Shown in pieces: positions 11,051-64,000 of a DNA stretch of 64,000 nt (position 1 is its first letter; each line of letters begins with the position of its first letter). A program made the translations under genes and the position numbers. A model generated the notes under the pieces. That model did no database searches. It saw only the letters and a program-made list of their open reading frames with translations, and was not told where the DNA came from. The DNA is from Octopus vulgaris (Eukaryota): assembly GCA_951406725.2 (NCBI GenBank), contig OX597820.1, positions 62,186,001 through 62,250,000 on the forward strand, written 5' to 3'.

Positions 11051-11447
11051 TCTTTATATATAAAAGAGAGGTTGTGTGTCTGTCTCCTACGATTTAGATT
11101 CCTAACTACTCCCACATTTTGCGGTGCAGTTTAACCAAAACCGGGTATCTTATAGTCGTGATTCATATCGATCCCTTCTGGGTATTAGCGCGCGTCTACG
11201 ATAAATCTACGATTTAAAAAAAAATTACCATCATTTTTTCCCCATTTTAATGCATTCTTTTCGCTATTATATAAGGGAAGTAACTCTCTAAAAATGTCTA
11301 CGATGAGTCAACGATTTTTAATAAAATTTACCATAATTTTATTCCATTTTTAATGCATTTTTTGCTAATTTTTGGCTATAACTCTCTAAAAATACTTATA
11401 TAGTTATTTCCCTTACAAACCCGAGCAACGCCGGGCGATACTACTCG
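11051..11447 (+). mobile_element. Non-autonomous Helitron-like element
   Basis: A|TC start (TCTTTATATATAAAAG), subterminal hairpin CCCGAGCAACGCCGGG and a CTCG|T end (CTAG variant). Internal partial duplication. Confidence 0.75.
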
Positions 11448-11688
11448 TATAGAATGAAACTCTTTAAAAAAAAATTTCACCAAAGTAGCAGCATATCAAG
11501 ATACGTTTAAAGGTGAAAAATTATAAACAATTTATAAACAAGAGCAAAAGAAAAAGATTTCTATACCAATATGCTGAGGATAGACTTCAAATCGTCAATC
11601 ATCACATTACAATATAAATTCACCATGAATACACGTCGTGCTAAAATCGAGGAAGGCAAGCTAACAGAATTTTTTTTAAAGTTCGTTA

Positions 11689-11747
11689 TCTCTATATGGA
11701 ATCAATTTCGGGATTAATGCTACGGAATTTTCCCTCTTCAGTAGAGA
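11689..11747 (-). ncRNA. Type I hammerhead ribozyme (family B), best-conserved copy
   Basis: Minus strand reads TCTCTA-CTGAAGA-GGGA-(17 nt)-TCCC-GAA-ATTG-ATT-CCAT-A^-TAGAGA. Stem I has 6 bp, stem II 4 bp and stem III 3 of 4 bp. The core is canonical with an AUA cleavage triplet. Confidence 0.8.
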
Positions 11748-11960
11748 ATAGGATAAGAAATAAATGAAATACTTACAAGCACCCATGCAAAAAAGCAGAA
11801 GCAAGAATCATGAGTACACATAAGTACTCCAGTTATATTTAAATGTAAAATTGTTTGGCAAGCCTATATATGTAGAAGGTTGAAAAGGAACACAGGAATT
11901 AATATATATGGAAATAAAAGTCAAGGTAGAAAATGCTAAAATAATTTTATAAAAACATAT

Positions 11961-12000
11961 CACTACCGGTTTCAGTCATTGAGAATTTCTTCTACTGTAA
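11961..12000 (-). ncRNA. Degenerate hammerhead-like motif
   Basis: Minus strand reads CAG-TAGAAGA-A-ATTC-TCAAT-GACT-GAA-ACCGGT-A-GTG, with a palindromic ACCGGT in place of stem III and a mutated core. Confidence 0.35.
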
Positions 12001-12151
12001 GTATGGAAAACAATTAACTTTCGGAAAAATTAAAAGAAAAGTTTTTTAAAAGAATATTTGCATAGTATTCAAATACAAGGGGCATTTTCCTTATTTCTGC
12101 CTGTCTCTATCTCTCTTGTTTACTCTTCTGGGTTCGATGACCTCGAGCCCC

Positions 12152-12223
<72 letters not shown>

Positions 12224-12385
12224 ATGTGTGTGTGTGTGTGTGTGTGTATGCACAGAGGTCATGTGTTTTGCCAGATTGTGGGCCGGCTGCGATACTTTGG
12301 CGTAAAAGAATATATTCTCATCAATTCGCCTGGTGTTAAAACATCAGGAAATCATAGACGAGTTAGATAACTCGCATCAGCGGTA

Positions 12386-12419
<34 letters not shown>

Positions 12420-12965
12420 CCTAAGTTTATATTACTACAAATTATATAATTTACCTATTTCCTTAAATTCTAAAAGATCATTATAAGTTTAAATGATACC
12501 AGAGTCTATAGCCGTATCTTATTTCATAGCAATCTCTACTATCATGTATATTAAGCTTTTATAACTATTTAACCTAAATTATGCTTTGCGAAGGACCATC
12601 AAACGAATAATTCCTAGGTTGCTTCAACCACAGACATGGGAACAACCTAGAATAAAGCCGCATAGAACTCTTTAGCCTGGATGAATATATACTGCAACTG
12701 AAGCAACTTAATGCTCATAAGTGCTACATCAAGGGAAAGTAGGACACTTAAGCACCAAAAACGTGTTGGACTGAAATCTAACGTGAATGTAATGTGAATA
12801 ATACTCTGCTAAACAAGATGCGAAGATGGATAATCCTCTATTCATTTTTATGATGTTATACATACACACCCCACACACACGCTCACTCACACACATACAT
12901 ATATATAGATATGTAGATATATGTATATATATATGTATATATATGTATATATATATATGTATATA

Positions 12966-13006
<41 letters not shown>

Positions 13007-13026
13007 ATATATATATATATGTATAC

Positions 13027-13079
<53 letters not shown>

Positions 13080-13260
13080 CATACATACATATCTATCTGT
13101 ATATTTTAAATATGTACATATATAACATATAATCACATGCAAGTACACAAAAGTGCACTTTTATATATACTCACGCACCCTCATATATACGCACACACAT
13201 ATATAATTATTCTATTGAATTTTAGATTTACAATCGTCTAAGTGCTTGTAAATTATTAAT

Positions 13261-13303
13261 TAGATCGGTTTCTGCAATGAATTTCACTTATATTCTTCAG
13301 CTG
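13261..13303 (-). ncRNA. Degenerate hammerhead-like motif
   Basis: Minus strand reads CTGAAGA-(21 nt)-GAAACCGATC. The core is intact and the stems are eroded. Confidence 0.4.
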
Positions 13304-13526
13304 TATTGCAGAACTTTCATAAACGTTGGAATCTATTTACAGTGTGCTACCAGTAATTTTTGTACATTTATTCCTGGCAATAATAGCAAAATCTGCAAAA
13401 GTAAGGGTGTAATTTTGTTTCTTTTAATCCTGCTTTATAATTGATTTTTTGTTATATGCATGTATGTGTGCGCATGTATATATGCGTCTGTGTGTATTTG
13501 TGCGTATGTATATCTGTATATATATG

Positions 13527-13590
<64 letters not shown>

Positions 13591-13864
13591 TGTGTATATA
13601 TAATATAAATTATATATATATGCATGTATACATACATATATGTACATACATATATATATATACATATGCATATGTAGGTACAGAACGTCATAAAATGTAA
13701 ACAACATGAAATACGAAAACAGGGAATACGAACATTTGGGGGGAACAACGAACGAAACAAATTGAAAACAAGACAAGTAACCTAAAGAACGACCCTTCAT
13801 CATCTGTAGTATATGTTTGAACGCCACGCATCCATATCCAAGTAACTTAATCTATCTATCTATC

Positions 13865-13895
<31 letters not shown>

Positions 13896-13916
13896 ATATA
13901 TGTATATATACATATG

Positions 13917-13948
<32 letters not shown>

Positions 13949-13972
13949 TGTATATGTATATATATGTATGTT

Positions 13973-14034
<62 letters not shown>

Positions 14035-14380
14035 TGTGTATGCTGCGTGCGTTCGTGTGTTTCTATGTGTGTGTGTGCGTACGGGTATATTTTCTGTAGG
14101 GTAGTGTCTTTTAAAGATAAACAGTCACTCACTCACCGGTACCAATGGCCACACACGCATTTATGTCGAGAGCGTCGGAGTATTTCTGCGTTTAAACGTA
14201 GCTGTATATTTATCTCTCATTCTCTTTGTATTTTTAATGTATTTCATCCCTGTGTTCAATGCATATCTATTTATACACTTAGGCATTGCGAGACCAAAAA
14301 CCCGATGTAGAACTCAATACACGTGTGTTTCAGAAAGTAGTGTTGGCTGAGTATAGAACGGTTATAAGAAAGAGATATAA

Positions 14381-14533
14381 CAAAAAAATAAATGATTATC
14401 TTATGGACTACAGTAGCTTACGGCTGTTTCTGACATAGTTGTCATTCAGGCATTCAACTATGGATCCGTTGCAACTTATAGCAGACACAACCGTAAGATT
14501 ATGAACTTCATTAGATAATCATTTATTCTTTGG
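14381..14533. repeat. Fold-back element (about 50 bp imperfect inverted arms)
   Basis: AATAAATGATTATCT...CTTACGGCTGTTTCTG pairs with CAGACACAACCGTAAG...AGATAATCATTTATT. Confidence 0.75.
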
Positions 14534-15347
14534 TCATTTATCATTCTGTGAAATTAGAGGCGTGTATATGTGTTGATGAATAAACGTATATATGTGTATA
14601 CTGTAAGATTATACGCATATATGTGTGTGTACATGTGTTTATATGATTGTGTGTGCTTGTACATACGTAGAGGTAGGTTTATATTTGCATGTATGTATCT
14701 AAGACATTGTATCTATTCGCCGTTATACTGTGGTGAAAGGAACATATATATATATATATATATATATAACCTTCGACAGAGTAACAGTTACATATACAAC
14801 TTGAAGACACATATCAGTACATAAACACACGGTTACAAGTACATACACATATACACACATGCAGACTTGTCTACTCACATACGTAACTACTCACATACAT
14901 ACATACATACATACATACATACATACATACATACATACATACATACATACATACATACATACATACAAAAATACATACATACATTCATAATTACATACAT
15001 ATATACATATCGTGAACTAAATGTTACTTTCTTAGATGCAGCACGAACTTTTGTCTGTGAACAGGTCGCGGTTTCAAAGCGACGAAAATATTTTAATGCA
15101 AATTAAACTTAAATACTGAAGTGAAACTAACGGCTCTTGTGCGTTCTTAAACATCTTCCACGCTGCAATTGAGTATGTATGTATATATATATATATATAT
15201 ATATACACACGCGCACACACACAAATAGAGGTTACAAACCTTATTCAGGGATAGCAAAATCTTATGAAAGTACTGGTTATTTACCTATACAAAGAATGTT
15301 GAACATTACAGTTAATACTGAACTGCAAGGTAACTATAGAAACATTG

Positions 15348-15392
<45 letters not shown>

Positions 15393-15444
15393 TTATAATA
15401 AGATAAGAATATAAAGAGATAATTAATGTAGTTACAAGCTGAAA

Positions 15445-15675
15445 ATGCATTGTGAGTGGAGTTTGGAGATGGAAACTGAATGAAGCCCTTCGTATATATG
15501 TGTGTGTACGTATGTGTGAGTGTGTATGTGCGTAACTTAGGGGTTCGGTAAAAGCGATCGATAAATAAGTACTACGCTGAAGATATAAGTACTGGGGTTG
15601 ACTCGTTCGACTAAAATTCTTGAACGCGGCACCCTAGCCCCGCTGCAGTCAAAAGATTGAAACAAGTATAAGATC
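15445..15675 (+). mobile_element. SINE family 1, decayed partial copy
   Basis: TGTGAGTGGA.TTTGG..GATGGAAACTGA, AACTTAGGGGTTCGG, GCAGTCAAA.GATTGAAACAAGTA. Confidence 0.75.
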
Positions 15676-16084
15676 TATAATACATACGCATACACACACG
15701 CACGCACACACACACATATAAATATACATCCATGCATACATATATGCATATATGTGTGTGTGTGTTTGTGCGTTCGCATTATTTGTAATTCACTGAAATT
15801 TTAACGATAAAACTTTATAAATGAAATAGAATATTTATATAACTTACCAGTTTTATATTATACGGCTATCCATGAATTTGTAATTAATGATTTTATCATT
15901 TCATGATGGCATATGTTTTGTGTGATGTTCTTATAATTCATAATTTTAATAAGCAGATATTAGCAATAGCAGAGAAAGTAATAAATTATTCTTATTAACA
16001 GTAACAGGGAATTAATATGTGGAATATCCATTTTCTCCAATTAATAATTGCAATAAATATAAATGTATATTTATTAAACGTGCG

Positions 16085-17850
16085 CATTTGAGCGTGGTCG
16101 ATATTTTTCAATGCATGTAGCTACATCTATCCGTTGCTGTTAAAATCTTCCTTCACCATATTGATTTAGATGAATATTATTTATTTCAGTTGATGATTCC
16201 GTGCACATGTATCTATACATTCATTAAGACATATTTGTCTGTAAATGGAAAATCATATTTGCTCTCTATATCGTGTCACGCCTTTTCTTAAATTCGTTCC
16301 TTTGAGCCTGCATATTTCCTATCATATCTTAAACGAGTAATTACATACATTAATTTTGTAGACGTACAGGTAAAATCGTTTCCTTGAAATGGAATCCTTT
16401 TTCAAAGTGGAATTCTGAAATATGGACAAAATTAGATTATTCCAAAGATTTTTTCAAAGCATTTGCTCTGTTAATTCTGTAGTTGTTCAATATAATTTAG
16501 GATCAGTTGATATTATCTTTCTTGATTCTGACTATCCACCACTGTTTATAACTGGATTTTTATTTGTAGAATTTGATTCATTGTGGTAACGTTTTACAGC
16601 AGGTAATATTATAGGCTTCATTGTTTTTAGGATTGTTGGTAGCGACATATATTAACACTTTCAATTCAAATGCATTGTTTAGTTTTACTTGTGTTTGTAC
16701 CCTGACATCAATTGCAACCCATCATCTTTTAAGAATGGGGAGATATGAATCTGGACGAGTATATCATTAAGTTTCTGGAGTAGTTTATTACGATACTTAT
16801 ATTACATACATCTGTGCATATCCTCTTGGGAAACTAAAGGGTATATTTGTTCAAGTATGATTGTCATCGATTATATATTGAATCGGGTCTGTAATATATA
16901 AGTCTATAATATCTGTCTCCTGCTGAATTTCATAATAAAATAACTAAAATTAGTAAGGTCTCTTAAGTGTGTTCCTTTGACAGTCAAATGCCAATATTAA
17001 TAATTTTTATAAACCCATTCCAATTTAATCATCGAGAAACCATTTCCAGTTCTCTTTTGTATACAGGTAGGAAAGATTTCCGTATGTTCTTGATTTACTG
17101 TGCTTTCCTAATATCTATAACTTAATTTACGTTGACTAGGGTTACTTTGGTCCGCATTATATTTCCGCGTTTTGTATGTAATAATTTACATCAAATGTAA
17201 AATTGATATTTTTGAGGATAAATTTTAATACTTTAATAATCGATTCATTTCTATACATTCTAGAAATATTTATACATATTTGTCCAACAAGAGTATGATT
17301 GATTCTATTTCTTAATCGTGAGTGATATTTGTAAGCCAATCTAATACATCAAAATAAGCAATGCGTCTTTTTATTCACGAATAGTTTTGGGGAGATGTTT
17401 CAACGCACTTTGATCATCTACTAATGTACATTTTGAAATCGTTTCAATAAAATGCATGAAAACAATATTAAGGCGGTGGTCGTGACCACCTATTATTAGA
17501 CTTAATTTTAAATTTAGTGATAAAACATAGACGCATATACTTGTGAACTTAGCATGTAACGTCATTTTGTATCTGTGAAATTCTGGTAAATCATAGGGAA
17601 GACAGATTATACTAAAAATTTCTTCTGAAATTTGATTGATCATTCTTTTTCGGTGTAAATGTAACAGATCTGCATGATTTTTTATTTCTCCCAGTTGATT
17701 GCTGTTTTTAGATATTTTGTAGTTTATATTGCCTTCAATCATTAAGAAGACAATATTTTTATGGAAATTCAGAATCCGCCAAACATGTAGCTTCCTTCCA
17801 TTTCCCAGCGTCTGAAACTGGCAATTCGTTTTCATTATTTCAGTTCAATT
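16085..17850 (-). pseudogene. Decayed Penelope-like element (RT plus GIY-YIG endonuclease)
   Basis: Minus-strand fragments occur in the expected order: LKFILKNINFTFDVNYYIQ (RT), NWKWFLDD (YxDD), HT*TNIPFS, DFTCTSTKLMYVIT...KYAG (FTCxSxNLIYxI..YIG of GIY-YIG), YRQICL.E.IDTC, CIEKYRP..N. Many stops and frameshifts. Confidence 0.75.
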
Positions 17851-18062
17851 ATATATGTCAATCAGTAGCCCTGGTGTTTGACTTAAGCCCTTTGGTTATG
17901 TGTGACATTACATGGAAAATGTCATTTTGATCACAAAATTAAGTGTTTTATTTCCACCGTTTTATGAAAAATAGCTGCAAATATAAAAATGCTTGTCCAT
18001 ATTCATACATACATGAACACTTATATACATACATATGTGGGTGTGTGCTTGTGTGTGAGTAC

Positions 18063-18104
<42 letters not shown>

Positions 18105-18393
18105 GTGTGTGGTGTTCATTTATCTTTTCACCTGTGCTACATGAATACCTTATATAATTTTTACCTATACGTTTTTTCCAAGATGGCCACTTGATATGAT
18201 CGTTATACTAAACAATAGTCTTAACCTTTTTATATATAAAAATATATATTCGCTTCGTGTTATCATATTCACTGCAGTGGTATTTTGACCATATAACACA
18301 TGGTGTAAGACGAACAAATGAATTACTTTGGTATATACGTGCACATATATGTACGTATACGTGCGTATATGTAAGTATTCGTATTTTTCAAAT

Positions 18394-18456
<63 letters not shown>

Positions 18457-18457
18457 C

Positions 18458-18690
18458 ATTTTCTAAATGAAACCACATCTTTGGCGATTTTTCTTCCGTC
18501 TTCTTTTTCTCTTCGACTTCCCTCTGTCTTCTTTTTCTGAAGAAGAGCTTTGCTCGAAACATAAAACCACCTTTCTCTGCTTCTCTGAGCGTCTGCTAAT
18601 ACTTTGCATTTACCACGTCCTCGCGTGGCTGTTTGCTCTTCTTGTGTTTGTTCTCGTTTTCTTTTTTTTTTTTTGGTGGGTGGGATTTAC
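18458..18690 (+). mobile_element. Family A hammerhead-bearing element, copy 2, flanked by (TA)n on both sides
   Basis: TTT-CTGAAGA-A-GAGC-TTT-GCTC-GAA-ACAT-A-AAA at 18534-18566. The tail is homologous to 1-167. Confidence 0.7.
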
Positions 18691-18735
18691 TATATATGTA
18701 TATATATTTGTAATTATGTACTAATTTTGGCGTAT

Positions 18736-18791
18736 TTCTACTGATGAAGGCAAAGTATTTTCTTACTAAGCCTGAAATCGCCGATGTAGAG
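18736..18791 (+). ncRNA. Type I hammerhead (family B), cleavage site mutated (AUG)
   Basis: TTCTA-CTGATGA-AGGC-(18 nt)-GCCT-GAA-ATC-GCC-GAT-G-TAGAG. All three stems pair. It is followed by TTAAC, like the 11689 copy (ATAAC). Confidence 0.75.
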
Positions 18792-19319
18792 TTAACCATT
18801 CAGTTTATGCTAATTTGTTTGTTCATTTATCTCTTCACCTTTGCTATATGAATACAGGATGTGGTTCTAGAGTCAGTTGTCACTGCTATTTCTGGCATGG
18901 TGGTGCCTCTTCGATATCCTTAATTATAATTATATATGTATATGTTCATACATACATGTATATATGTGTGTGCGTATGTATGTATATATAATGAACATTA
19001 TATACGATAACTCTTTTGTGCAAATAATTACAAAGCTTTCCGGTAGAGAGGTTTAGTTGAGTAAATGTATGCAAATGTATTCTAGCTCACTAGGAGCGCC
19101 ACTGAGTGGCCTTTTGATCTGCTAGACAGAACAACCAAATATTTCTGAAACCTTTCTTACACAATTAAATACTCTACATTGGATAATAAGAATTTGGGCA
19201 CACCATAATAATAAAAAAAGACGTATGTTTCATAGAATGTATTTGATAATAGGCCTGCCACGTAAGAGCTAACGTATAAGAACCCACGCTACAACAACAA
19301 CACCAATGCAATCTTATCT

Positions 19320-26830: not shown

Positions 26831-28855
26831 CATCATCATCCTTCATCCAGCCTATGGTTGGTCAGAACTCCATTGACAATCCCTTTCCACACTACACAGT
26901 TCTGCATTGCTGTGTTCAAATCTCTGATATTCAGTCCTGAGTCCCGAGATATAGTATCTGGAAATGTCAGTTTCCTGGAGGAAACACTTACTGAGGGATG
27001 CCATAGTAGCAGGGATGAGATGACCTCTTTCTCTGCTCGATAACAGTGCCCAGCAAATTGTAGCCGTTTCTGCTTTAGCTTGAGGGATATTAGTATCAGA
27101 TTTCCATAGATGTTACTAAGTGTTGGGTGTCATCTCCAACTGATGTTCTGGAGAGCCGATAAGGTCCAGGTCTCTTCTCCATAGAGAAGGGTCGGCTCAA
27201 TCGGTGGTCTAAATATTATAACTTTTAATGTGGGTGGAAGGTTTGAGTTACAGACCTTATCAAGTCTGTTACATGCATCTGAAGCAAGAGATTTGCGGAT
27301 GCGAAAGTACTTTTGGGAGTCTACTATGTATGATCCAACATATTTGAAGTCGTCAACGATTTTGATTGATATATTATTGAGCGATTTAAATTCAGTTAAC
27401 TTGGAAGAGGTGGTGATAAACTCTGTCCTACTCTCGTTGCAGTATAAGCCGACCTGGGTTTGTTGTTTTCTCCAGTGGTTGTAACAAAGATTCTGCATCT
27501 TTAATACAATGGAATATCAACGTAAGATTGTCAGCAAAGTCAAGATCAGTTAAATATTGTGCACAATGCCGACTACTCTGGTGGGGTTTCAAAAAGAGCC
27601 CCTTTTCCTCCATACCGTCTCGGGAAATACGTAGAACATAGTCGAGAACAACGATGGATATGAAAGGAGCGAGCGTGTCACCCTGAAGAACACCTGCTTC
27701 AACTTCAAAGAAATCAGTCTCTCTACCAAGAGATATAACTGTGGCAATGGTGTTTGTGTACAGCGCTTTGATAGCATAAACAATCCTAGGAGGAATACCA
27801 TAGAGTGCAAGGATTTTAAACATAACATCTCTGCTGTTGGAATCAAATGCTTTGCGAAAGTCGACAAAACAGACTGGGACACACTTGTTAAACTTTTTAA
27901 TTTCTTCCAGCATGCGACGGAGAGCATTTGAGCAGCTGTTGCCCGGCCCCTCCTAAACCAATTCTGATTCTTACGAAGAAATGGATCAAGCATAGGTACA
28001 ATAAAACTAAGCAGAATTTTGTTATAAACGTTTGCTGCAATAGGGATCAGAGTAATTCCTCTATAATTTGGTGTACTTGTTAGATAACCTGTTTTGGGGG
28101 ACAAGGACAATTCCATCCTTCAACCAAGCTGATGGAGGCAAATGATGTGCATATGTGTCGTTGCAGAAACCTAGTATGGTTTCATGAAATATTGGATGTT
28201 TCTATAGTAATGTTGGTATGTTATCGAGTTCTGGAGGTTTATTGTTAGTAAAACTACTGAGAACTACTTTGAGCTCATCCAATGTGAAAAGGCCCGTGAT
28301 GATGTCTAATACATTAAATATTTAGTGTAGAGGAAGTGGAAGACCGTTAGTTTGCGGTGATTCTCCAAGAAGTTTCTGAAAGTAGGCAAACCAGTTGGCC
28401 TTGCGCTTCTCATAGGAACCACCTTCAAGCCTGATGGAGGGCTTAAATTTTCTTTCAGTTAGTGTTATTAATTTCCATATTGCAGCATGTTGCTTTGCAG
28501 TATGCAAGTTTGCAATTTTGTTAATCTCATCTAGAATGTAATCTGTTTCTACATTGGCATATGCCTCATCTTGTGTTCCTTGAGCTTTGGAAGCATCTTT
28601 GAAGTTATGTTTAGTGGGCCTCTGTTCATATTTAAGTTTCGATCTTTCTAGATGCTTCCTTGCTTCTCTCACACGGACATCTGCATGAATTGATCTGTGC
28701 TTTATTCTTTCTTTCTTGCGTAGTTTTGAAAGGGAAATTTCATCTGTGGCTTTTACGAGGTTATTATATTGTATTTCAATGTCGTCAGTGTGCTCTGAGA
28801 GCATTTCAAACCGCCGGTTTTCAACATCGGCAAAATGGCGTGCTATGTCTTTATC
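26831..28855 (-). mobile_element. 5'-truncated, frameshifted RTE-clade LINE (reverse transcriptase)
   Basis: NYRGITL, NQNWFRRGR, FVDFRKAFDS, GVLQGDTLAPF, DLDFADNL, FKYVGSYI, LLYGEETWTL. The (ATG)n tail is at 26831. Confidence 0.92.
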
Positions 28856-28860
28856 TACTG

Positions 28861-28893
<33 letters not shown>

Positions 28894-29127
28894 TTACTAC
28901 TGCCACCGCCACGACGACGACGACCACCACCACCACCACAACTACAACTACTACTACTACTACTACTGCCGTCACTACCACCAGTACCACCAACACTACT
29001 ACTGCTACTACTACTGCCGCTGCCGGCACCACCACCAACAACACTTCTACTACTACTACTAATACTGCTGCTGCTGCTGCTGCCACCACCGCCGCCGCCA
29101 ACACCATCACCACTACCACCACCATTA
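28856..29127. repeat. (CTA/CCA/CTG)n microsatellite
   Basis: Direct reading. It is the other half of the tract interrupted by the LINE. Confidence 0.9.
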
Positions 29128-29780
29128 CGAATGTTAATCACTGTTTCAGTCTTTCTTCCCCGGAGGACTGCAGTTCTCTTAAAGAAACGAAATGTGGAGC
29201 AACGAGTCTACCGCCTTAGTCTTCCTCGGTAGGAGTTGCCAATGATAACAGAGAAACGATTTAAATGCTGTGGCTTTATAATGGAACTGTTAACGCTGCT
29301 GATTGGTATGAATTCGTTTACTTATGTCGACTAATTTTATTTAGTCTAAAATGTTTAGTCTATAAAACTTTAGTAACAGCTGAGGCTAATACGCGGTGTT
29401 ACATAGGTTTATGTGCTATAAACTTCAAAAGATGATTATATAACCATGCTACCGCATTCAAATTTATGGAAACAATAAACTGTACTTCTTTGGAGTTTAA
29501 AAGACAAGAATCCTAAATATGTTATTCAATGATCAATTATTGCAAGTGCTTTATAATGGAGGTAATCTTAAATGTGGCTTTGGCTTGGAGAGATATTCCA
29601 CACCCTTACCTACAAATATGATCTATTAAACTGCAGCAATGAATTTGCGATACAATGTTTATATTGATATAGAAAAATTTCCAAATATTTTCCTGATATG
29701 TAGTATTAGGACTAATTCATTAAAATAAAGGGCAGACTTACATAACCCTTCTCTAATATTCCCCACTCGTGCACAGCAAT

Positions 29781-30032: not shown

Positions 30033-31040
30033 CTAGCATTAAATACCCGAGGTTACCGGGTCATAGTGCTAGTGCATGTATATATGTATATATATATATG
30101 TGTACATATTACATGTACATTTATATATATATACATCTACACATAAAATACAAAATACAAAGTTATATCTTGATATCGCTAGTGATAACAATACTCAAAA
30201 TATATAACAGACTGTATATATTGTATCTTGTCCTCCCTCTTGTATAGAAGTGTGGCTCCAACCCAGCCTACCTCTACTTCTGGTGGGGGAGGGGCATTTT
30301 AAATTTTTTTCCGGGACGTCCTACGTCCCACATATAGTGGTTGAAATAAAATATTTCCACTTTGCAAGTTCGAGTCGAGTACTCCCTTGCACGCTCCTTT
30401 GACTCGAACCTTGCTTCTATTGTGGCGAATTTACCGCCTCTGATTAGATATCTTTCATAGTCGCACCAAGACACTTTTCGAAGGTGCTTTCCTCCATGTG
30501 TTCAAATCTTTTTTCTCTACATTGTATACTTTATAGACAATAGTCTTTTCTTTAATTTAATTTTTTATTATCCATCTGGACTATTCCATTTCTGCACGCT
30601 AATTTTATTTTTAATTTATTCCGATTCATGTGAAATCACTTATTGAAGTTCAAGTCATTGATGCAATTTTATACCAATTGCTATTTTTACTTTTATTATG
30701 TTACGATTATATTATACTTTAGCTTGATTTTAATTATTACTTACTACATATAATTCAATTGTTATTATTATTTTATTGTTAAAGTGAAAGTATCTGACAT
30801 AAAATAGAGAAACGTTTTTGTTTCAATTTTAACACGTAATACTGAAATAGTGGAGAAGATATGATATTGCTATGGGCTCGCTCTAGGCAAGAAGTTGAAC
30901 ATTTTTTTGCCCATGAAACTACATAGACCCTGAGTAAGGCATGTGTAAAATTTGAATGAAATCGGTTGTGTAGTTCTCAAGTTTTAGGGAAACGCAGACA
31001 AACAGACAGACACACATTCTCAGTTTTATATATATAAAGA
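30033..31040 (-). mobile_element. Non-autonomous Helitron-like element, copy 1
   Basis: Minus strand has A|TC...subterminal hairpin...CTAG|T ends. It is closely similar to the reverse complement of 50471-51644. Confidence 0.85.
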
Positions 31041-40035: not shown

Positions 40036-40104
40036 TACTTAGCCTTCGGTATTTGTATACTACTTCACCCCTTTTTTACAATTATCTTACTCGTATATAT
40101 TACT

Positions 40105-40142
<38 letters not shown>

Positions 40143-40199
40143 AGTAAGGGCATAATTGTAAAAAAAGGGGTGAAGTAGTATACAAATACCGAAGGCTAA

Positions 40200-40202
<3 letters not shown>
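40036..40202. repeat. Near-perfect palindrome centred on (TA)n
   Basis: The roughly 50-bp arm TACTTAGCCTTCGGTATTTGTATACTACTTCACCCCTTTTTTACAATTAT faces its reverse complement, differing by one T/A in the homopolymer. Confidence 0.95.
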
Positions 40203-50470: not shown

Positions 50471-51516
50471 TTTCTATATATATAAAACTGAGAATGTGTG
50501 TCTGTCTGTGTGTGTTTCCCTAAAACTTGAGAACTACATAACCAATTTCATTCAAATTTTACACATGCCTTACTTAGGGTTCGGGGAGTGTCATCAGCAA
50601 AAAAAGTTTTAACTTTTTGCCTAGGGCGAGCCCACAGCAATATCATATCTTCTCCACTACGATTCCCTAAAACTTGAGAACTACACAACCAATTTCAAAT
50701 TTTACACATGCCTTACTTAGGGTCTATGTAGTTTCATGGGCAAAAGAAATGTTCAACTTCTTGCCAAGAGCGAGCCCATAGCAATATCATATATTTTCCA
50801 CTATTTCAGTATTACGTGTTAAAAGTGAAACAAAAATATTTCTCTATCTTATTTCAGGTGCTTTCACTTTAACAATAAAAATAATAATAACACTTGAATT
50901 ATATGTAGTAAGTAATAATTAAAATCAAACTAAAATATAATATAATCGTAACATAACAAAAGTAAAAATAGCAATTAGTATAAAATTGAATAAGTGGTTT
51001 CACATGAATGGGAATAAATTAAAAATAAAATTAGCGTGCAGAAATGGAATAGTCCAGATTGATAATAAAAAATTAAATTAAAGAAAATACTATTGTCTAT
51101 AAAGTATACAATGTAGAGAAAAAAGATTTGAACATCTGGAGGAAAGCACCATCGAAAAGTGTCTTGGTGCGACTATGAAAGATATCTAACCAGAGGCGGT
51201 AAATTCGCCATAATAGAAGTAATGTTCGAGTCAACGGAGCGTGCAAGGGAGTACTCGACTCGAACTTGCAAAGTGGAAATATCTTATTGTACCTTTATAT
51301 CTGGGACGTAGGACGTCCCGGATAAAAATCAAAAATGCGCCCCCAGCAGTAGAGGTAGGCTGGATTGTAGCTACACTTCTGTACAAGAGGGAGGACAAGA
51401 TACAATTGATCGAAATTGCAAGAGACGAGCCTACAATTCCAGTCTGTTATATATTTTGAGTATTGTTATCACTAGCGATATCAAGATATAACTTTGTATT
51501 TTGTATTTTATGTGTA

Positions 51517-59005: not shown

Positions 59006-59876
59006 TTCGAAGACGCTTTGGAGGAGATCCTAGGTTACGATGAAAACCAGTTGAGATCAACCTGTTCAGGAGAGTTTTCGGGTCGGGATATCTGGAAAAT
59101 TACAGAAATCCCTGGCTTGGCAGTGCTTCCGTGCGGCGTTACCTGTTCCTGATAAACAGTCAAGGTACGGAAGTGCCGTCTCACCGACATGTCCGAAGTG
59201 CGGACAGGACAGGAAAACCGTCTTGCACGAATTTGTGGTATGTCCGGAATTGCCGGGACTGAGAGTTTTCACAGAACAACTGTTGTCATCAAGGGGAAGA
59301 GTACAGCTATCAGCTGAGTCTATTATCGAGATTGTACCGCCTCCTTCCCTTAACGGGAAAGGGAAGGCTTGCATTTTCTGCGTTGTAGCCATACTGAGAG
59401 AAACAGTATCGAAGACGCGTGTGAGAGGCATAGTGAAGGGTACCTTTCTATCCGGCCAGGGGTTGGTTAACTTTTTTAGTGATCACCTCAGGCTGGAGAA
59501 AAGGCATCTGTCACGAGATAGATTCATGAAAAGATGAAAGCCTGTGACAAGGAAGCTGGGAGCAATTGGCACCAGGTAAGTGGAATCCAAGAAAAGAAAG
59601 AGAAAGAGAAAGCAAGGGTTCTACCCTTGTGGTCGGATGCCTTTCCTTCATGGAAGTCATTGCAAATCGCAATGAGTAACATGTTATCATGTAATTGGTA
59701 ATTAGTACTTTGTAATTTGTAAATTGTAATTTGTAAATTGCAATTTGTGAATTGTAATTTGTAAATTGTAATTTGTAATTTTAAATTGTATCATAAATTT
59801 ATCATCATACATTTTTAAACGTCTGTCTTTGTTTTTCCCCTCTTTGTAATGTCTTCATGGCAAATAATATGAAATG
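59006..59876 (+). mobile_element. 5'-truncated L1/Tx1-like LINE 3' end (zf-RVT-like Cys/His domain plus 3'UTR)
   Basis: SLAWQCFRAALPVPDK...PTCPKCGQDRKTVLHEFVVCP (CxxC..H..C). AATAA/ATGAAATGAA tail. Putative TSD AAGTAG at 59000-59005 and 59877-59882. Confidence 0.75.
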
Positions 59877-62402: not shown

Positions 62403-64000
62403 CATCATCATCATTGTTCGACCGTGGTCGAGACAATGGAATTTACTATGTTACACCAGACTTCACGGTCCATCATAGCATTACGGAGGTCCTGTTGCTG
62501 GATGTCTGTATCCCTGGAGATTACATCAGGGTAGGAGAGTGTGCGCCCTCTGGTATCGCGAGCAGATGGCTTTCAGAGGAGTAGTGTAGAAATTACCTCG
62601 TTTTCAGCTGTACAACAATGTCCAGCAAACTGGACTCTTCTACCTTTCACAAGAGATGATACAGGTGTTAATTTCCCATATTTGTACTTTGGTTGGATGA
62701 CGATTCCACGAGAGATTTTGAGCTCTCATAAGGAGACGAGTGTAAGTTCCATCCAACCGCCTCTCAAGCTTCTTTGATAATGTCCAGGTTTCTGAGCTAT
62801 ATTGTAGAATTGGTTCGAATGTGGCTTTGAAGATTTTAAGTTTGAAATCTCTACTTAGATTTGATGACGAGGTCATATGCATATCATTAAAGGCTGAGCA
62901 TGCCATGCCCTTTCTAGTGAGAAAATCTTTTTCAGATGATGATATGTAAGACCTAAGATAGTTGTAATCAGAGACCATATTTATGAGCGTATTGTTGAGA
63001 GTATGGATGATAAAATCACTGTTGGACAGGCACTTGTTTACATATTCAGTCTTGGACTTATTGAGGTAAAGACCTACACAATTTGAGGCTTTTTCAAGAG
63101 ATTGTAAAAGAGACTAGGCATTGGAGAGAGAATCACTGATAAGAGCGATGTCGTCAGCAAAGTCATTGTCTGTTAAGTGTTCAGCTGGGTGTCTGGAATT
63201 TCTTCTAGGTTTTATTTCAAAGCCCTTACCAGAAATGGTATCAACTGACATACATAGCACATAGTCAACGACAATGATGAAGAGAAATGGGGCGAGTGTG
63301 TCTCCCTGCAGTATTCCGGCTTTTATTGAGAAAGATAATGTTTCTCCATCAGGGGTTAAGATGGTTAAAGACGTATCTGTGTACAGGACCTTGATGGCAG
63401 AGACGGTTTTGTCTGGAATCCCATAGAGCATAAGGATTTAAAAAATCTTGTACTTATCTACAGAGTCGAACGCTTTAGAAAAGTCTACAAACACCATTGC
63501 AAGATCACGATTAAATGCTTTTGATTCTTCAATGAGTCTGCGTAGGCATAGTATTTGGCTCAACGTTGAGCGCCCATGTCTGAATCCATTTTGGTTCTTT
63601 CGGAGCAAAGGTTCAACAAAAGGGACGAGACGATTCAAAATCAGTTTGTTGTACAATTTTGCAGCAATTCACATTAGAGATATACCCCTGTAGTTAGTGA
63701 CGAGGGATAAATCGTCTTTTGGGGTTATTGGGATGATTTGAGATTGGTGCCAAATCTTTGGAGCTATAAAAGTGGAAAGTGTGTGATTACAAAGATTGAG
63801 CAAAAGTACGTGAAATTTATCATCCTTCCAAATTATAGCTGGGATGATGTCGGGACCAAATGCTTTCGAGGCTTTCAGTTGTTTAGTGGCTGTTGTTAGT
63901 TCAAATATGGTAAAAGAGGAGGTGTTGACGTCCAGCGTATCTGATATAGGCACACTTGGAAGGGATTTTGGCATTCTTTCCAAGAAGATTTTTAAAATGA
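62403..64000 (-). mobile_element. RTE-clade LINE (RT), frameshifted, continues beyond the window
   Basis: KAFGPDIIPA, NYRGISLM, NQNGFRHGRST, FVDFSKAFDS, GILQGDTLAPFLF, DFADDIAL, YSSETWTL. The (ATG)n tail is at 62403. Confidence 0.93.

What the first reader, a model, noticed from the sequence alone, without database searches (positions are those of the whole stretch)
11689..18791. Two hammerhead ribozymes with covarying stems (family B): structure kept while sequence changed
Seen: 11689-11747(-) and 18736-18791(+) share the canonical CUGANGA/GAAA core, a TCTA/TAGA stem I and similar flanks (TATT..TCTA ... TAGAG(A/T)TAAC). Stem II is GGGA/TCCC in one and AGGC/GCCT in the other, and stem III is ATtG/CCAT versus ATC/GAT, so the sequences differ but the pairing is the same. 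Established: type I HHRs occur in the pLTRs of Penelope-like elements and in non-autonomous retrozymes. Inference: the progenitor elements were under selection for self-cleavage. The 11689 copy (AUA site) may still be active, while the 18736 copy (AUG site) is probably inactive.
Basis: partly seen in the sequence, partly recalled or inferred. Interest (0 to 1): 0.75.

Follow-up and report, generated by a model that had tools for sequence, protein, structure and literature searches.

The report
Decayed copies of two hammerhead retrozymes
Both spots are real hammerhead-ribozyme motifs, each inside a worn-down copy of a roughly 500-base, protein-less repeat found hundreds to thousands of times in this animal genome; such repeats are a known kind of self-cutting RNA parasite (retrozymes), likely pasted in by Penelope-type jumping genes, and these two copies are probably dead.

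Summary
Both motifs are present as described and exceed chance (2 hits; 0 in 100 controls). Each lies in its own dispersed repeat family with an ORF-less, circularly permuted ~500-nt monomer. Copies end at two fixed points ~90 nt apart (family 1 mostly before TA runs), are 5'-truncated, often form back-to-back pairs and reach two units: non-LTR retrozymes with the Penelope insertion footprint. The two families share one extended hammerhead architecture: a model trained on family 1 finds the second motif at E 2.6e-6. Compensatory pairs separate subfamilies, and covariation seems to extend over the monomer, so selection on progenitor RNA structure is supported. Inserted copies decay at near-neutral rates. 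Corrections: the 11689 copy carries private changes that break its helix III palindrome and weaken stems I and II, so activity is doubtful. TCTA/TAGA is a minority form in family 2. The stem II closing pair is mismatched in many lineages. G17 slows but need not abolish cleavage. No autonomous partner, cleavage or RNA circle is shown. This scan already reported the same kind of element on other DNA of this genome. New member of a known kind.

The parts
11439..11865 (-). Family 1 retrozyme copy, 427 nt, 5'-truncated (monomer positions 378 to 501, then 1 to 305), one hammerhead, ends at the distal fixed end; about 90% identical to the family consensus
   Evidence: family:
11683..11753 (-). Type I hammerhead 1 with extended stems; core intact; predicted cut between 11695 and 11694 (AUA); private changes at 11698 (helix III palindrome), in distal stem II and in distal stem I
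18113..18161 (+). Short 5' piece of the family 2 copy (monomer positions about 80-128), followed by an internal deletion or template jump
18154..18387 (+). Family 2 copy, upstream part (monomer positions 217-447); contiguous with the next part in other loci (L042, L051, L058)
18460..18692 (+). Different ~220-nt repeat with a minimal hammerhead (core at 18537), inserted in the TA-rich tract of the family 2 copy
18695..18942 (+). Family 2 copy, downstream part (monomer positions 449-494, then 1-202), ends at the proximal fixed end in TA-rich DNA; about 89% identical to the family consensus
18728..18798 (+). Type I hammerhead 2 with extended stems; core intact except G17 (18786); family has C, A or U there in 30 of 33 copies

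Best explanation
The two motifs are type I hammerheads inside decayed single-ribozyme copies of two ORF-less ~500-nt repeat families that are likely distantly related and likely spread as non-LTR retrozymes copied by a Penelope-like reverse transcriptase. Shown in the sequence: circularly permuted monomers, arms up to two units long, two fixed 3' ends about 90 nt apart, variable 5' ends, back-to-back arm pairs, TA-run flanks in family 1, compensatory base pairs between subfamilies. Inferred: tandem master copies were transcribed, two adjacent hammerheads paired through their palindromic helix III and cut out a monomer, which was ligated to a circle. A Penelope-like protein then nicked AT-rich DNA and began cDNA at two internal sites, running through the ribozyme site. 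Selection acted on the RNA of the masters; inserted copies, including these two, then decayed neutrally and are probably inactive.
For: High copy number: 1363-2839 first-look candidates for family 1, 475-924 for family 2; 570 exact matches of a 29-nt ribozyme half. Monomers of 501 and 494 nt whose end joins their start in many independent loci. 29 of 85 family 1 arms exceed one unit, longest 992 nt; 59 of 85 end at the two fixed points, 48 of those 59 before a TA run. In a sample drawn with a query downstream of the cut, 10 of 12 back-to-back insertions pair one proximal with one distal end; family 2, 8 of 11. This matches the PLE tail and two-start rule (PMC11167929, parts 1-2 read). 25 of 30 arms run through the cleavage site. 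Compensatory pairs: stem I C-G 30 / U-A 25 with 3 mixed, stem II G-C 39 / A-U 11 with 8 mixed. The stem I U-A form fills a 23-copy clade of a tree built without the ribozyme. Model R1 from family 1 scores motif 2 at 36.7 bits, next window hit 14.9, and misses the minimal hammerhead and those in the sampled PLE loci. Circular monomer folds z -9.1 and -6.8 (25 shuffles); 20 of 96 predicted pairs change on both sides over 13 monomers, 19 of them outside the ribozyme. The active fold costs 1.0-4.8 kcal/mol as a dimer against 7.5-11.4 as monomers in family 1 lineages. Mutation rate in 30 copies: core 13/330, stems 48/838, rest 578/9492, not different (p 0.12, 0.76).
Against: No cleavage, circle or master locus shown; no array longer than about two units per arm was seen. 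No autonomous partner: none of 76 PLE loci carried either family as its terminal repeat where checked. Compensatory changes are few events inherited by many copies: by pair count alignment A1 does not beat shuffles (4 vs 4.6; 430 of 500) and family 2 alone beats no control. The first pair of stem II is unpaired in 33 of 51 cells of alignment A3 and A.A in 18 of 33 family 2 copies, so the structure was not strictly kept. Homology outside the ribozyme is weak: z 3.1-4.2, 1 of 32 profile hits at E<0.01 in one of four comparisons. One search has no shuffle control and A3 is fitted to the model. For family 2 the dimer fold still costs 5.1-11.8 kcal/mol. Raw RNA reads from a related species are sparse, on both strands, with no pile-up of ends. 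3 of 30 arms start within 5 nt of the cut.
Confidence: 0.8

Rival explanations
1. The repeats are non-autonomous PLE deletion derivatives (tandem pLTRs) copied from uncut linear multimeric RNA. The hammerhead is kept but cutting and circles are not needed for insertion.
For: In the one PLE tested in vitro, hammerhead mutants insert normally and uncut RNA is the main substrate (PMC11167929). Arms reach only about two units. Several lineages carry a mismatch at the base of stem II. 8 of 9 Xenopus retrozyme dimers did not cleave (bioRxiv 10.64898/2026.07.22.740005).
Against: The core stays intact and several stem pairs are compensated across lineages about 70% identical. The monomer folds far better than shuffles as a circle. 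No long tandem master was found to supply linear multimers.
Confidence: 0.13
2. The motifs are remnants of pLTRs of autonomous, ORF-bearing PLEs, as the first reader left open.
For: Type I hammerheads with a small palindromic helix III occur in pLTRs (PMC4209133). The genome holds thousands of PLE fragments. Family copies lie beside PLE ORFs in a few loci (L081, L082, L207).
Against: Both directions from the ribozyme lead back into the same ~500-nt unit, never into an ORF. In L207 the family 2 pair lies outside the PLE's own terminal repeat. Noncoding spacers of the sampled PLEs show no significant likeness beyond AT-rich noise.
Confidence: 0.05
3. The two families are unrelated, and the shared look reflects only the general hammerhead fold.
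For: Weak similarity outside the ribozyme; any two hammerheads differ in stem sequence.
Against: Same monomer length, same positions of the two fixed ends, same AA/AA loop and distal stems; intermediate copies score 41-55 bits on R1 while other hammerheads of the genome are not hit. This rival concerns ancestry only and can hold together with the retrozyme reading.
Confidence: 0.2

Closest known systems
Metazoan non-LTR retrozymes (Cervera and de la Pena 2020, PMC7229834; parts 2-4 of 6 read)
   Same: Type I hammerhead in an ORF-less, low-GC (30-33%), highly self-paired repeat unit; tandem units; PLEs in the same genome; axolotl HHR_Amex2 also has a mismatch at the base of stem II and works best as a dimer.
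   Different: Monomer ~500 nt against 170-400 nt there; dispersed one- or two-armed insertions of at most about two units rather than long arrays; circles and cleavage not shown here; the monomeric ribozyme here is predicted to be self-blocked, whereas most metazoan circles were predicted free to fold.
Vertebrate retrozymes as non-autonomous PLE derivatives (Li, Clavereau, Pollet 2026, bioRxiv 10.64898/2026.07.22.740005; parts 1-3 of 5 read, supplements closed)
   Same: Monomers and dimers dispersed over chromosomes; unit length within their 51-972 bp range; PLE co-occurrence.
   Different: They link Xenopus families to pLTRs by sequence; no matching pLTR was found here. No mollusc is among the taxa named in the parts read.
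EN+ Penelope-like elements (PMC8557442 passages; PMC11167929 parts 1-2 of 4; PMC4209133 parts 1-2 of 4)
   Same: 5' truncation, inverted 5'-truncated partner, optional tail between two reverse-transcription start sites, AT-rich targets, hammerhead with palindromic helix III.
   Different: No RT or GIY-YIG ORF; tail about 90 nt instead of 30-40 nt; ribozyme is extended, not minimal.

Membership tests
Type I hammerhead ribozyme | CUGANGA and GAAA core, NUH site, helices I-III in type I order | tested here: met
   Motif 1 fully; motif 2 except N17 = G, which is C, A or U in 30 of 33 family copies
Type I hammerhead ribozyme | Compensatory variation in helices | tested here: met
   Family 1 stems I and II, between families; few independent events; family 2 alone inconclusive
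Type I hammerhead ribozyme | Match to a curated Rfam hammerhead model | tested here: not met
   No hammerhead family at E up to 10
Type I hammerhead ribozyme | Site-specific self-cleavage | not testable with these tools
   Only folding estimates
Non-LTR retrozyme | Short ORF-less monomer with a type I hammerhead, in head-to-tail repeats | tested here: met
   501- and 494-nt monomers; two-ribozyme arms in L007, L072, L084-L086, L223, L226, L232. The two window copies hold one ribozyme each.
Non-LTR retrozyme | Highly self-paired monomer | tested here: met
   Circular fold z -9.1 and -6.8 for consensus monomers, -4.1 for one real young unit
Non-LTR retrozyme | Expressed as abundant linear and circular RNA | tested here: inconclusive
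   Sparse two-strand reads in a related species; contigs of runs only guessed to be RNA cover a young relative but not its flank
Non-LTR retrozyme | Target-site duplication when present | not tested
   Ends lie in TA runs or abut other insertions; no systematic search
Autonomous Penelope-like element | RT plus GIY-YIG ORF between pLTRs | tested here: not met
   No such ORF continuous with either family; none seen among window ORFs of 130 aa or more
PLE-mobilised element | Two fixed 3' ends (tail), 5' truncation, inverted partner arm, AT-rich targets | tested here: met

The most novel reading that the evidence does not exclude
These retrozymes carry a built-in off switch. In the monomer the catalytic strand (U4-N7) pairs with the 3' strand of helix III, and the variable core base N7 tracks its partner (A-U in family 1, U.G or U-A in family 2), so a released monomer or circle stays uncut. 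Only a tandem transcript frees the core, by forming the dimeric helix III. This would supply the missing mechanism that protects animal retrozyme circles, which PMC7229834 supposed is not self-pairing. The blocking helix is predicted in 16 of 23 folded motifs, and both window copies have lost it by private mutation. It may only be a by-product of a TGA-containing palindrome and of energy models that ignore tertiary contacts.
Probability: 0.2. Interest if true: 0.55.

Novelty: new member of a known kind. Interest (0 to 1): 0.3.

Why it matters
The two copies are fossils of a known class. Their families are still a useful series: about nine lineages (my count by eye) of one ribozyme-bearing RNA, from young (units 96-98% alike) to old (14% diverged), show which parts of a retrozyme are held by selection. 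Their ends support Penelope-type mobilisation, which the papers read propose but do not show for retrozymes. I found no paper on cephalopod retrozymes in the listings of two searches (terms hammerhead with Penelope and octopus, and hammerhead, cephalopod, retrozyme, octopus, squid); the library lacks most subscription journals.

Tried and rejected
Rfam scans: no hammerhead hit. Repeat finder on the window: swamped by microsatellites. Linking the families to PLE ORFs next to L042 and L024: the ORFs belong to other PLE families with other 3' regions. Partner hunt through two protein searches and 16 fetched loci: none found. Pfam gives only a sub-threshold RVT_1 match for one of 6 PLE pieces. First idea that TCTA/TAGA is unique to the window copy (1 exact match; 1 of 6) was dropped when 4 more U-A copies appeared; these came from a search with the window motif itself, so the p of 0.005 is biased. 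Sequencing-run search: no RNA holder listed. Raw reads of run X22 on the young relative: 0 laid, no test. Joints that 'go back' reflect the permuted unit also present in DNA, so they are not evidence of circles. A GTAAGT splice-donor-like word lies upstream of the ribozyme in both monomers; no spliced read was seen at low depth, left open. N7 covariation with the blocking helix rests on three lineages; 4 of 41 family 1 motifs break it. Family 2 end counts include microsatellite artefacts near monomer positions 380-470, which I disregarded; its TA-flank count (15 of 55) is unreliable because the end itself is TA-rich. Look-ups of earlier notes by sequence and nearby place found nothing.
Full report
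Observation. Both motifs are in the sequence as described. A descriptor scan finds exactly these two type I hammerheads with stems I and II of at least 4 bp, and none in 100 Markov controls. Rfam does not detect them. The window is microsatellite-rich animal DNA, G000:C7 of a 2.8-Gb assembly; 'octopus-like' is a label taken from earlier AI notes and was not checked. Among window ORFs of 130 aa or more I saw no PLE ORF, only LINE-like pieces judged by eye.

Host elements. Motif 1 lies in family 1 (1363 to 2839 first-look candidates), motif 2 in family 2 (475 to 924); only 40 candidates were scored per search. Following copies outward from the ribozyme leads back into the same unit in both directions. 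The monomers are 501 and 494 nt, 33% and 30% GC. The window's family 1 copy spans 11865-11439. The family 2 copy is in three pieces, 18113-18161, 18154-18387 and 18695-18942, split by a third repeat with a minimal hammerhead. Each copy holds one ribozyme. Copies differ from consensus by a median 7.9% (59 copies) and 14.2% (33 copies). Younger relatives of family 1, 486-494 nt, have tandem units 96-98% alike.

Insertion footprint. Of 85 family 1 arms, 33 end at monomer positions 200-239 and 26 at 300-319; 5' starts are scattered; 29 arms are longer than one unit, the longest 992 nt; 48 of 59 canonical ends have a TA run within 20 nt. In 30 loci drawn with a query wholly downstream of the cut, 10 of 12 back-to-back insertions pair one proximal with one distal end (one arm interrupted), 25 of 30 arms cross the cleavage site, 3 start within 5 nt of it and 2 start downstream. 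In the earlier, differently drawn set 7 of 19 pairs showed the full rule, 1 had two proximal ends and the rest had at least one end elsewhere; family 2 showed it in 8 of 11. Inverted 5'-truncated partners and a tail are PLE traits (PMC8557442, passages), and the tail is the stretch between two internal reverse-transcription starts (PMC11167929, parts 1-2 of 4). Read-through of the cut site means the template was uncut or religated; the data do not separate these.

Covariation. Family 1 has three compensated pairs: stem I C-G 29 / U-A 25, stem II G-C 34 / A-U 11, distal stem II C-G 38 / U-A 9 among 57 copies. Cell-based scores beat 500 of 500 shuffles, pair-based counts do not. The stem I change marks a clade of 23 copies in a tree built without the ribozyme, so these are a few events in masters. 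Family 2 alone beats no control (25 copies); its one candidate pair (C-G 19, U-A 5, mixed 5) is biased by the query. Between families the architecture is shared: proximal and distal stem I, 4-bp stem II, AA/AA loop, distal stem II, interrupted palindrome in helix III. A covariance model from family 1 alone finds motif 2 at E 2.6e-6. Over 58 chosen loci it finds family 2 copies and intermediates but not the hammerheads of the PLE loci included. Outside the ribozyme, similarity is collinear but weak (283 of 521 columns overall; z 3.1-4.2 outside; 1 of 32 profile hits in one of four tests). Over 13 family 1 monomers 20 of 96 predicted pairs change on both sides, 19 outside the ribozyme (no control). 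Against strict conservation, the pair that closes stem II is A.C, C.C or A.A in several lineages; axolotl HHR_Amex2 has a similar mismatch and cleaves (PMC7229834). Within 30 family 1a copies, core, stems and the rest mutate at 3.9%, 5.7% and 6.1%, not significantly different; 19 of 30 keep an intact core. So selection acted on progenitors, and inserted copies drift.

Are the two copies active? Predicted, not shown. For motif 1 the pairing probability of stems I and II falls from 0.95 and 0.93 (consensus) to 0.02 and 0.18 with 40-nt flanks, and the dimeric helix III from -6.7 to -1.1 kcal/mol. Reaching the active dimer costs 8.4 kcal/mol against 1.0-4.8 in family 1 lineages, and no tandem partner lies beside it. 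Motif 2 keeps stem II, has G17 and folds mainly into another hairpin. G17 lowers rates 8- to 100-fold in four extended hammerheads (PMC3884650, outline and Results part 1 of 2). These energy models ignore tertiary contacts.

Partner and expression. Two protein searches show thousands of PLE pieces of several families. Family 1 or 2 sequence occurs in 5 of 76 PLE loci; in the four examined (L139/L081, L169/L082, L204, L207) it is not the element's terminal repeat; L160 was not examined further. Raw RNA reads of a related species gave 160, 135 and 75 reads out of about 12 million each, on both strands, with no pile-up of ends. Contigs of three runs guessed to be RNA cover a young relative and not its flank; contigs cannot show level or strand.

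Mechanism. Most likely (0.8): non-LTR retrozymes whose tandem transcripts were cut by dimeric hammerheads, circularised and copied by a PLE protein from two internal starts into AT-rich nicks. Anatomy, ends and covariation are shown; cleavage, circles and partner are inferred from PMC7229834 (parts 2-4 of 6), PMC4209133 (parts 1-2 of 4) and bioRxiv 10.64898/2026.07.22.740005 (parts 1-3 of 5). Rivals: uncut linear templates (0.13), pLTR remnants of autonomous PLEs (0.05).

Novelty. A new member of a known kind. Earlier notes of this scan describe 360-, 492- and 590-nt retrozymes with two-armed insertions in the same genome; I had noted fixed ends and inverted pieces before reading them, took the paired-end rule from them as a lead and tested it. 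Whether their 492-nt family is the young branch of family 1 is untested (searches found no look-alike). The boldest open reading is a self-blocking helix between the catalytic strand and helix III, predicted in 16 of 23 folded motifs, which would keep monomers and circles uncut. I give it 0.2. Interest 0.3.

Noticed in passing
window 18460-18692 (+), core at 18537: Third hammerhead: minimal type (3-bp stem I, extra A before stem II, no real helix III) in a ~220-nt repeat with 3594 first-look candidates, tandem in L247; most relatives read CGUA after GAAA, the window copy CAUA. Inserted into the family 2 copy.
   Followed up: partly
L082 4490-4450 (-), L209, L210: A young PLE family (RT with C-terminal GIY-YIG, open frames to 1312 aa) has a hammerhead-like motif downstream of its ORF with CUGAUGC instead of CUGAUGA in the 4 copies seen; L144 has the canonical core.
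   Followed up: no
L221-L238: Younger 486-494-nt relatives of family 1 keep the 3' half of the ribozyme letter for letter but have A.C or C.C at the base of stem II, one lineage with an extra A.
   Followed up: partly
L199 4081-5332, L206, L214, L200, L208: Intact-looking 718-727-aa PLE ORFs with an RWK or RWR motif (Hydra-like by PMC8557442), one in a 3.4-kb tandem 99.5% alike; its spacer has a hammerhead core without clear stems.
   Followed up: no
window 11765-11771 (-) and about 18373-18379 (+): A splice-donor-like GTAAGT word upstream of the ribozyme in both monomers; Penelope has an intron ending at helix I (PMC4209133).
   Followed up: partly
window about 11440-11200 (-): Another repeat abuts the 3' end of the family 1 copy; it resembles a Helitron-type 5' end (label recalled, not tested) and has an internal ~100-bp repeat.
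   Followed up: no
window 40038-40200; 30345-30650 with 50983-51288: A long hairpin around a TA run (MITE-like), and a 306-nt inverted pair 95% alike 20 kb apart.
   Followed up: no
window 27428-29137 (-), 59055-59537 (+), 62640-63113 (-): Broken LINE-like reverse-transcriptase pieces, judged by eye from translations.
   Followed up: no
runs X22, X23: A related species carries family 1 relatives whose helix III appears as an uninterrupted palindrome, like some old copies in this genome: a possible ancestral state of both families.
   Followed up: no
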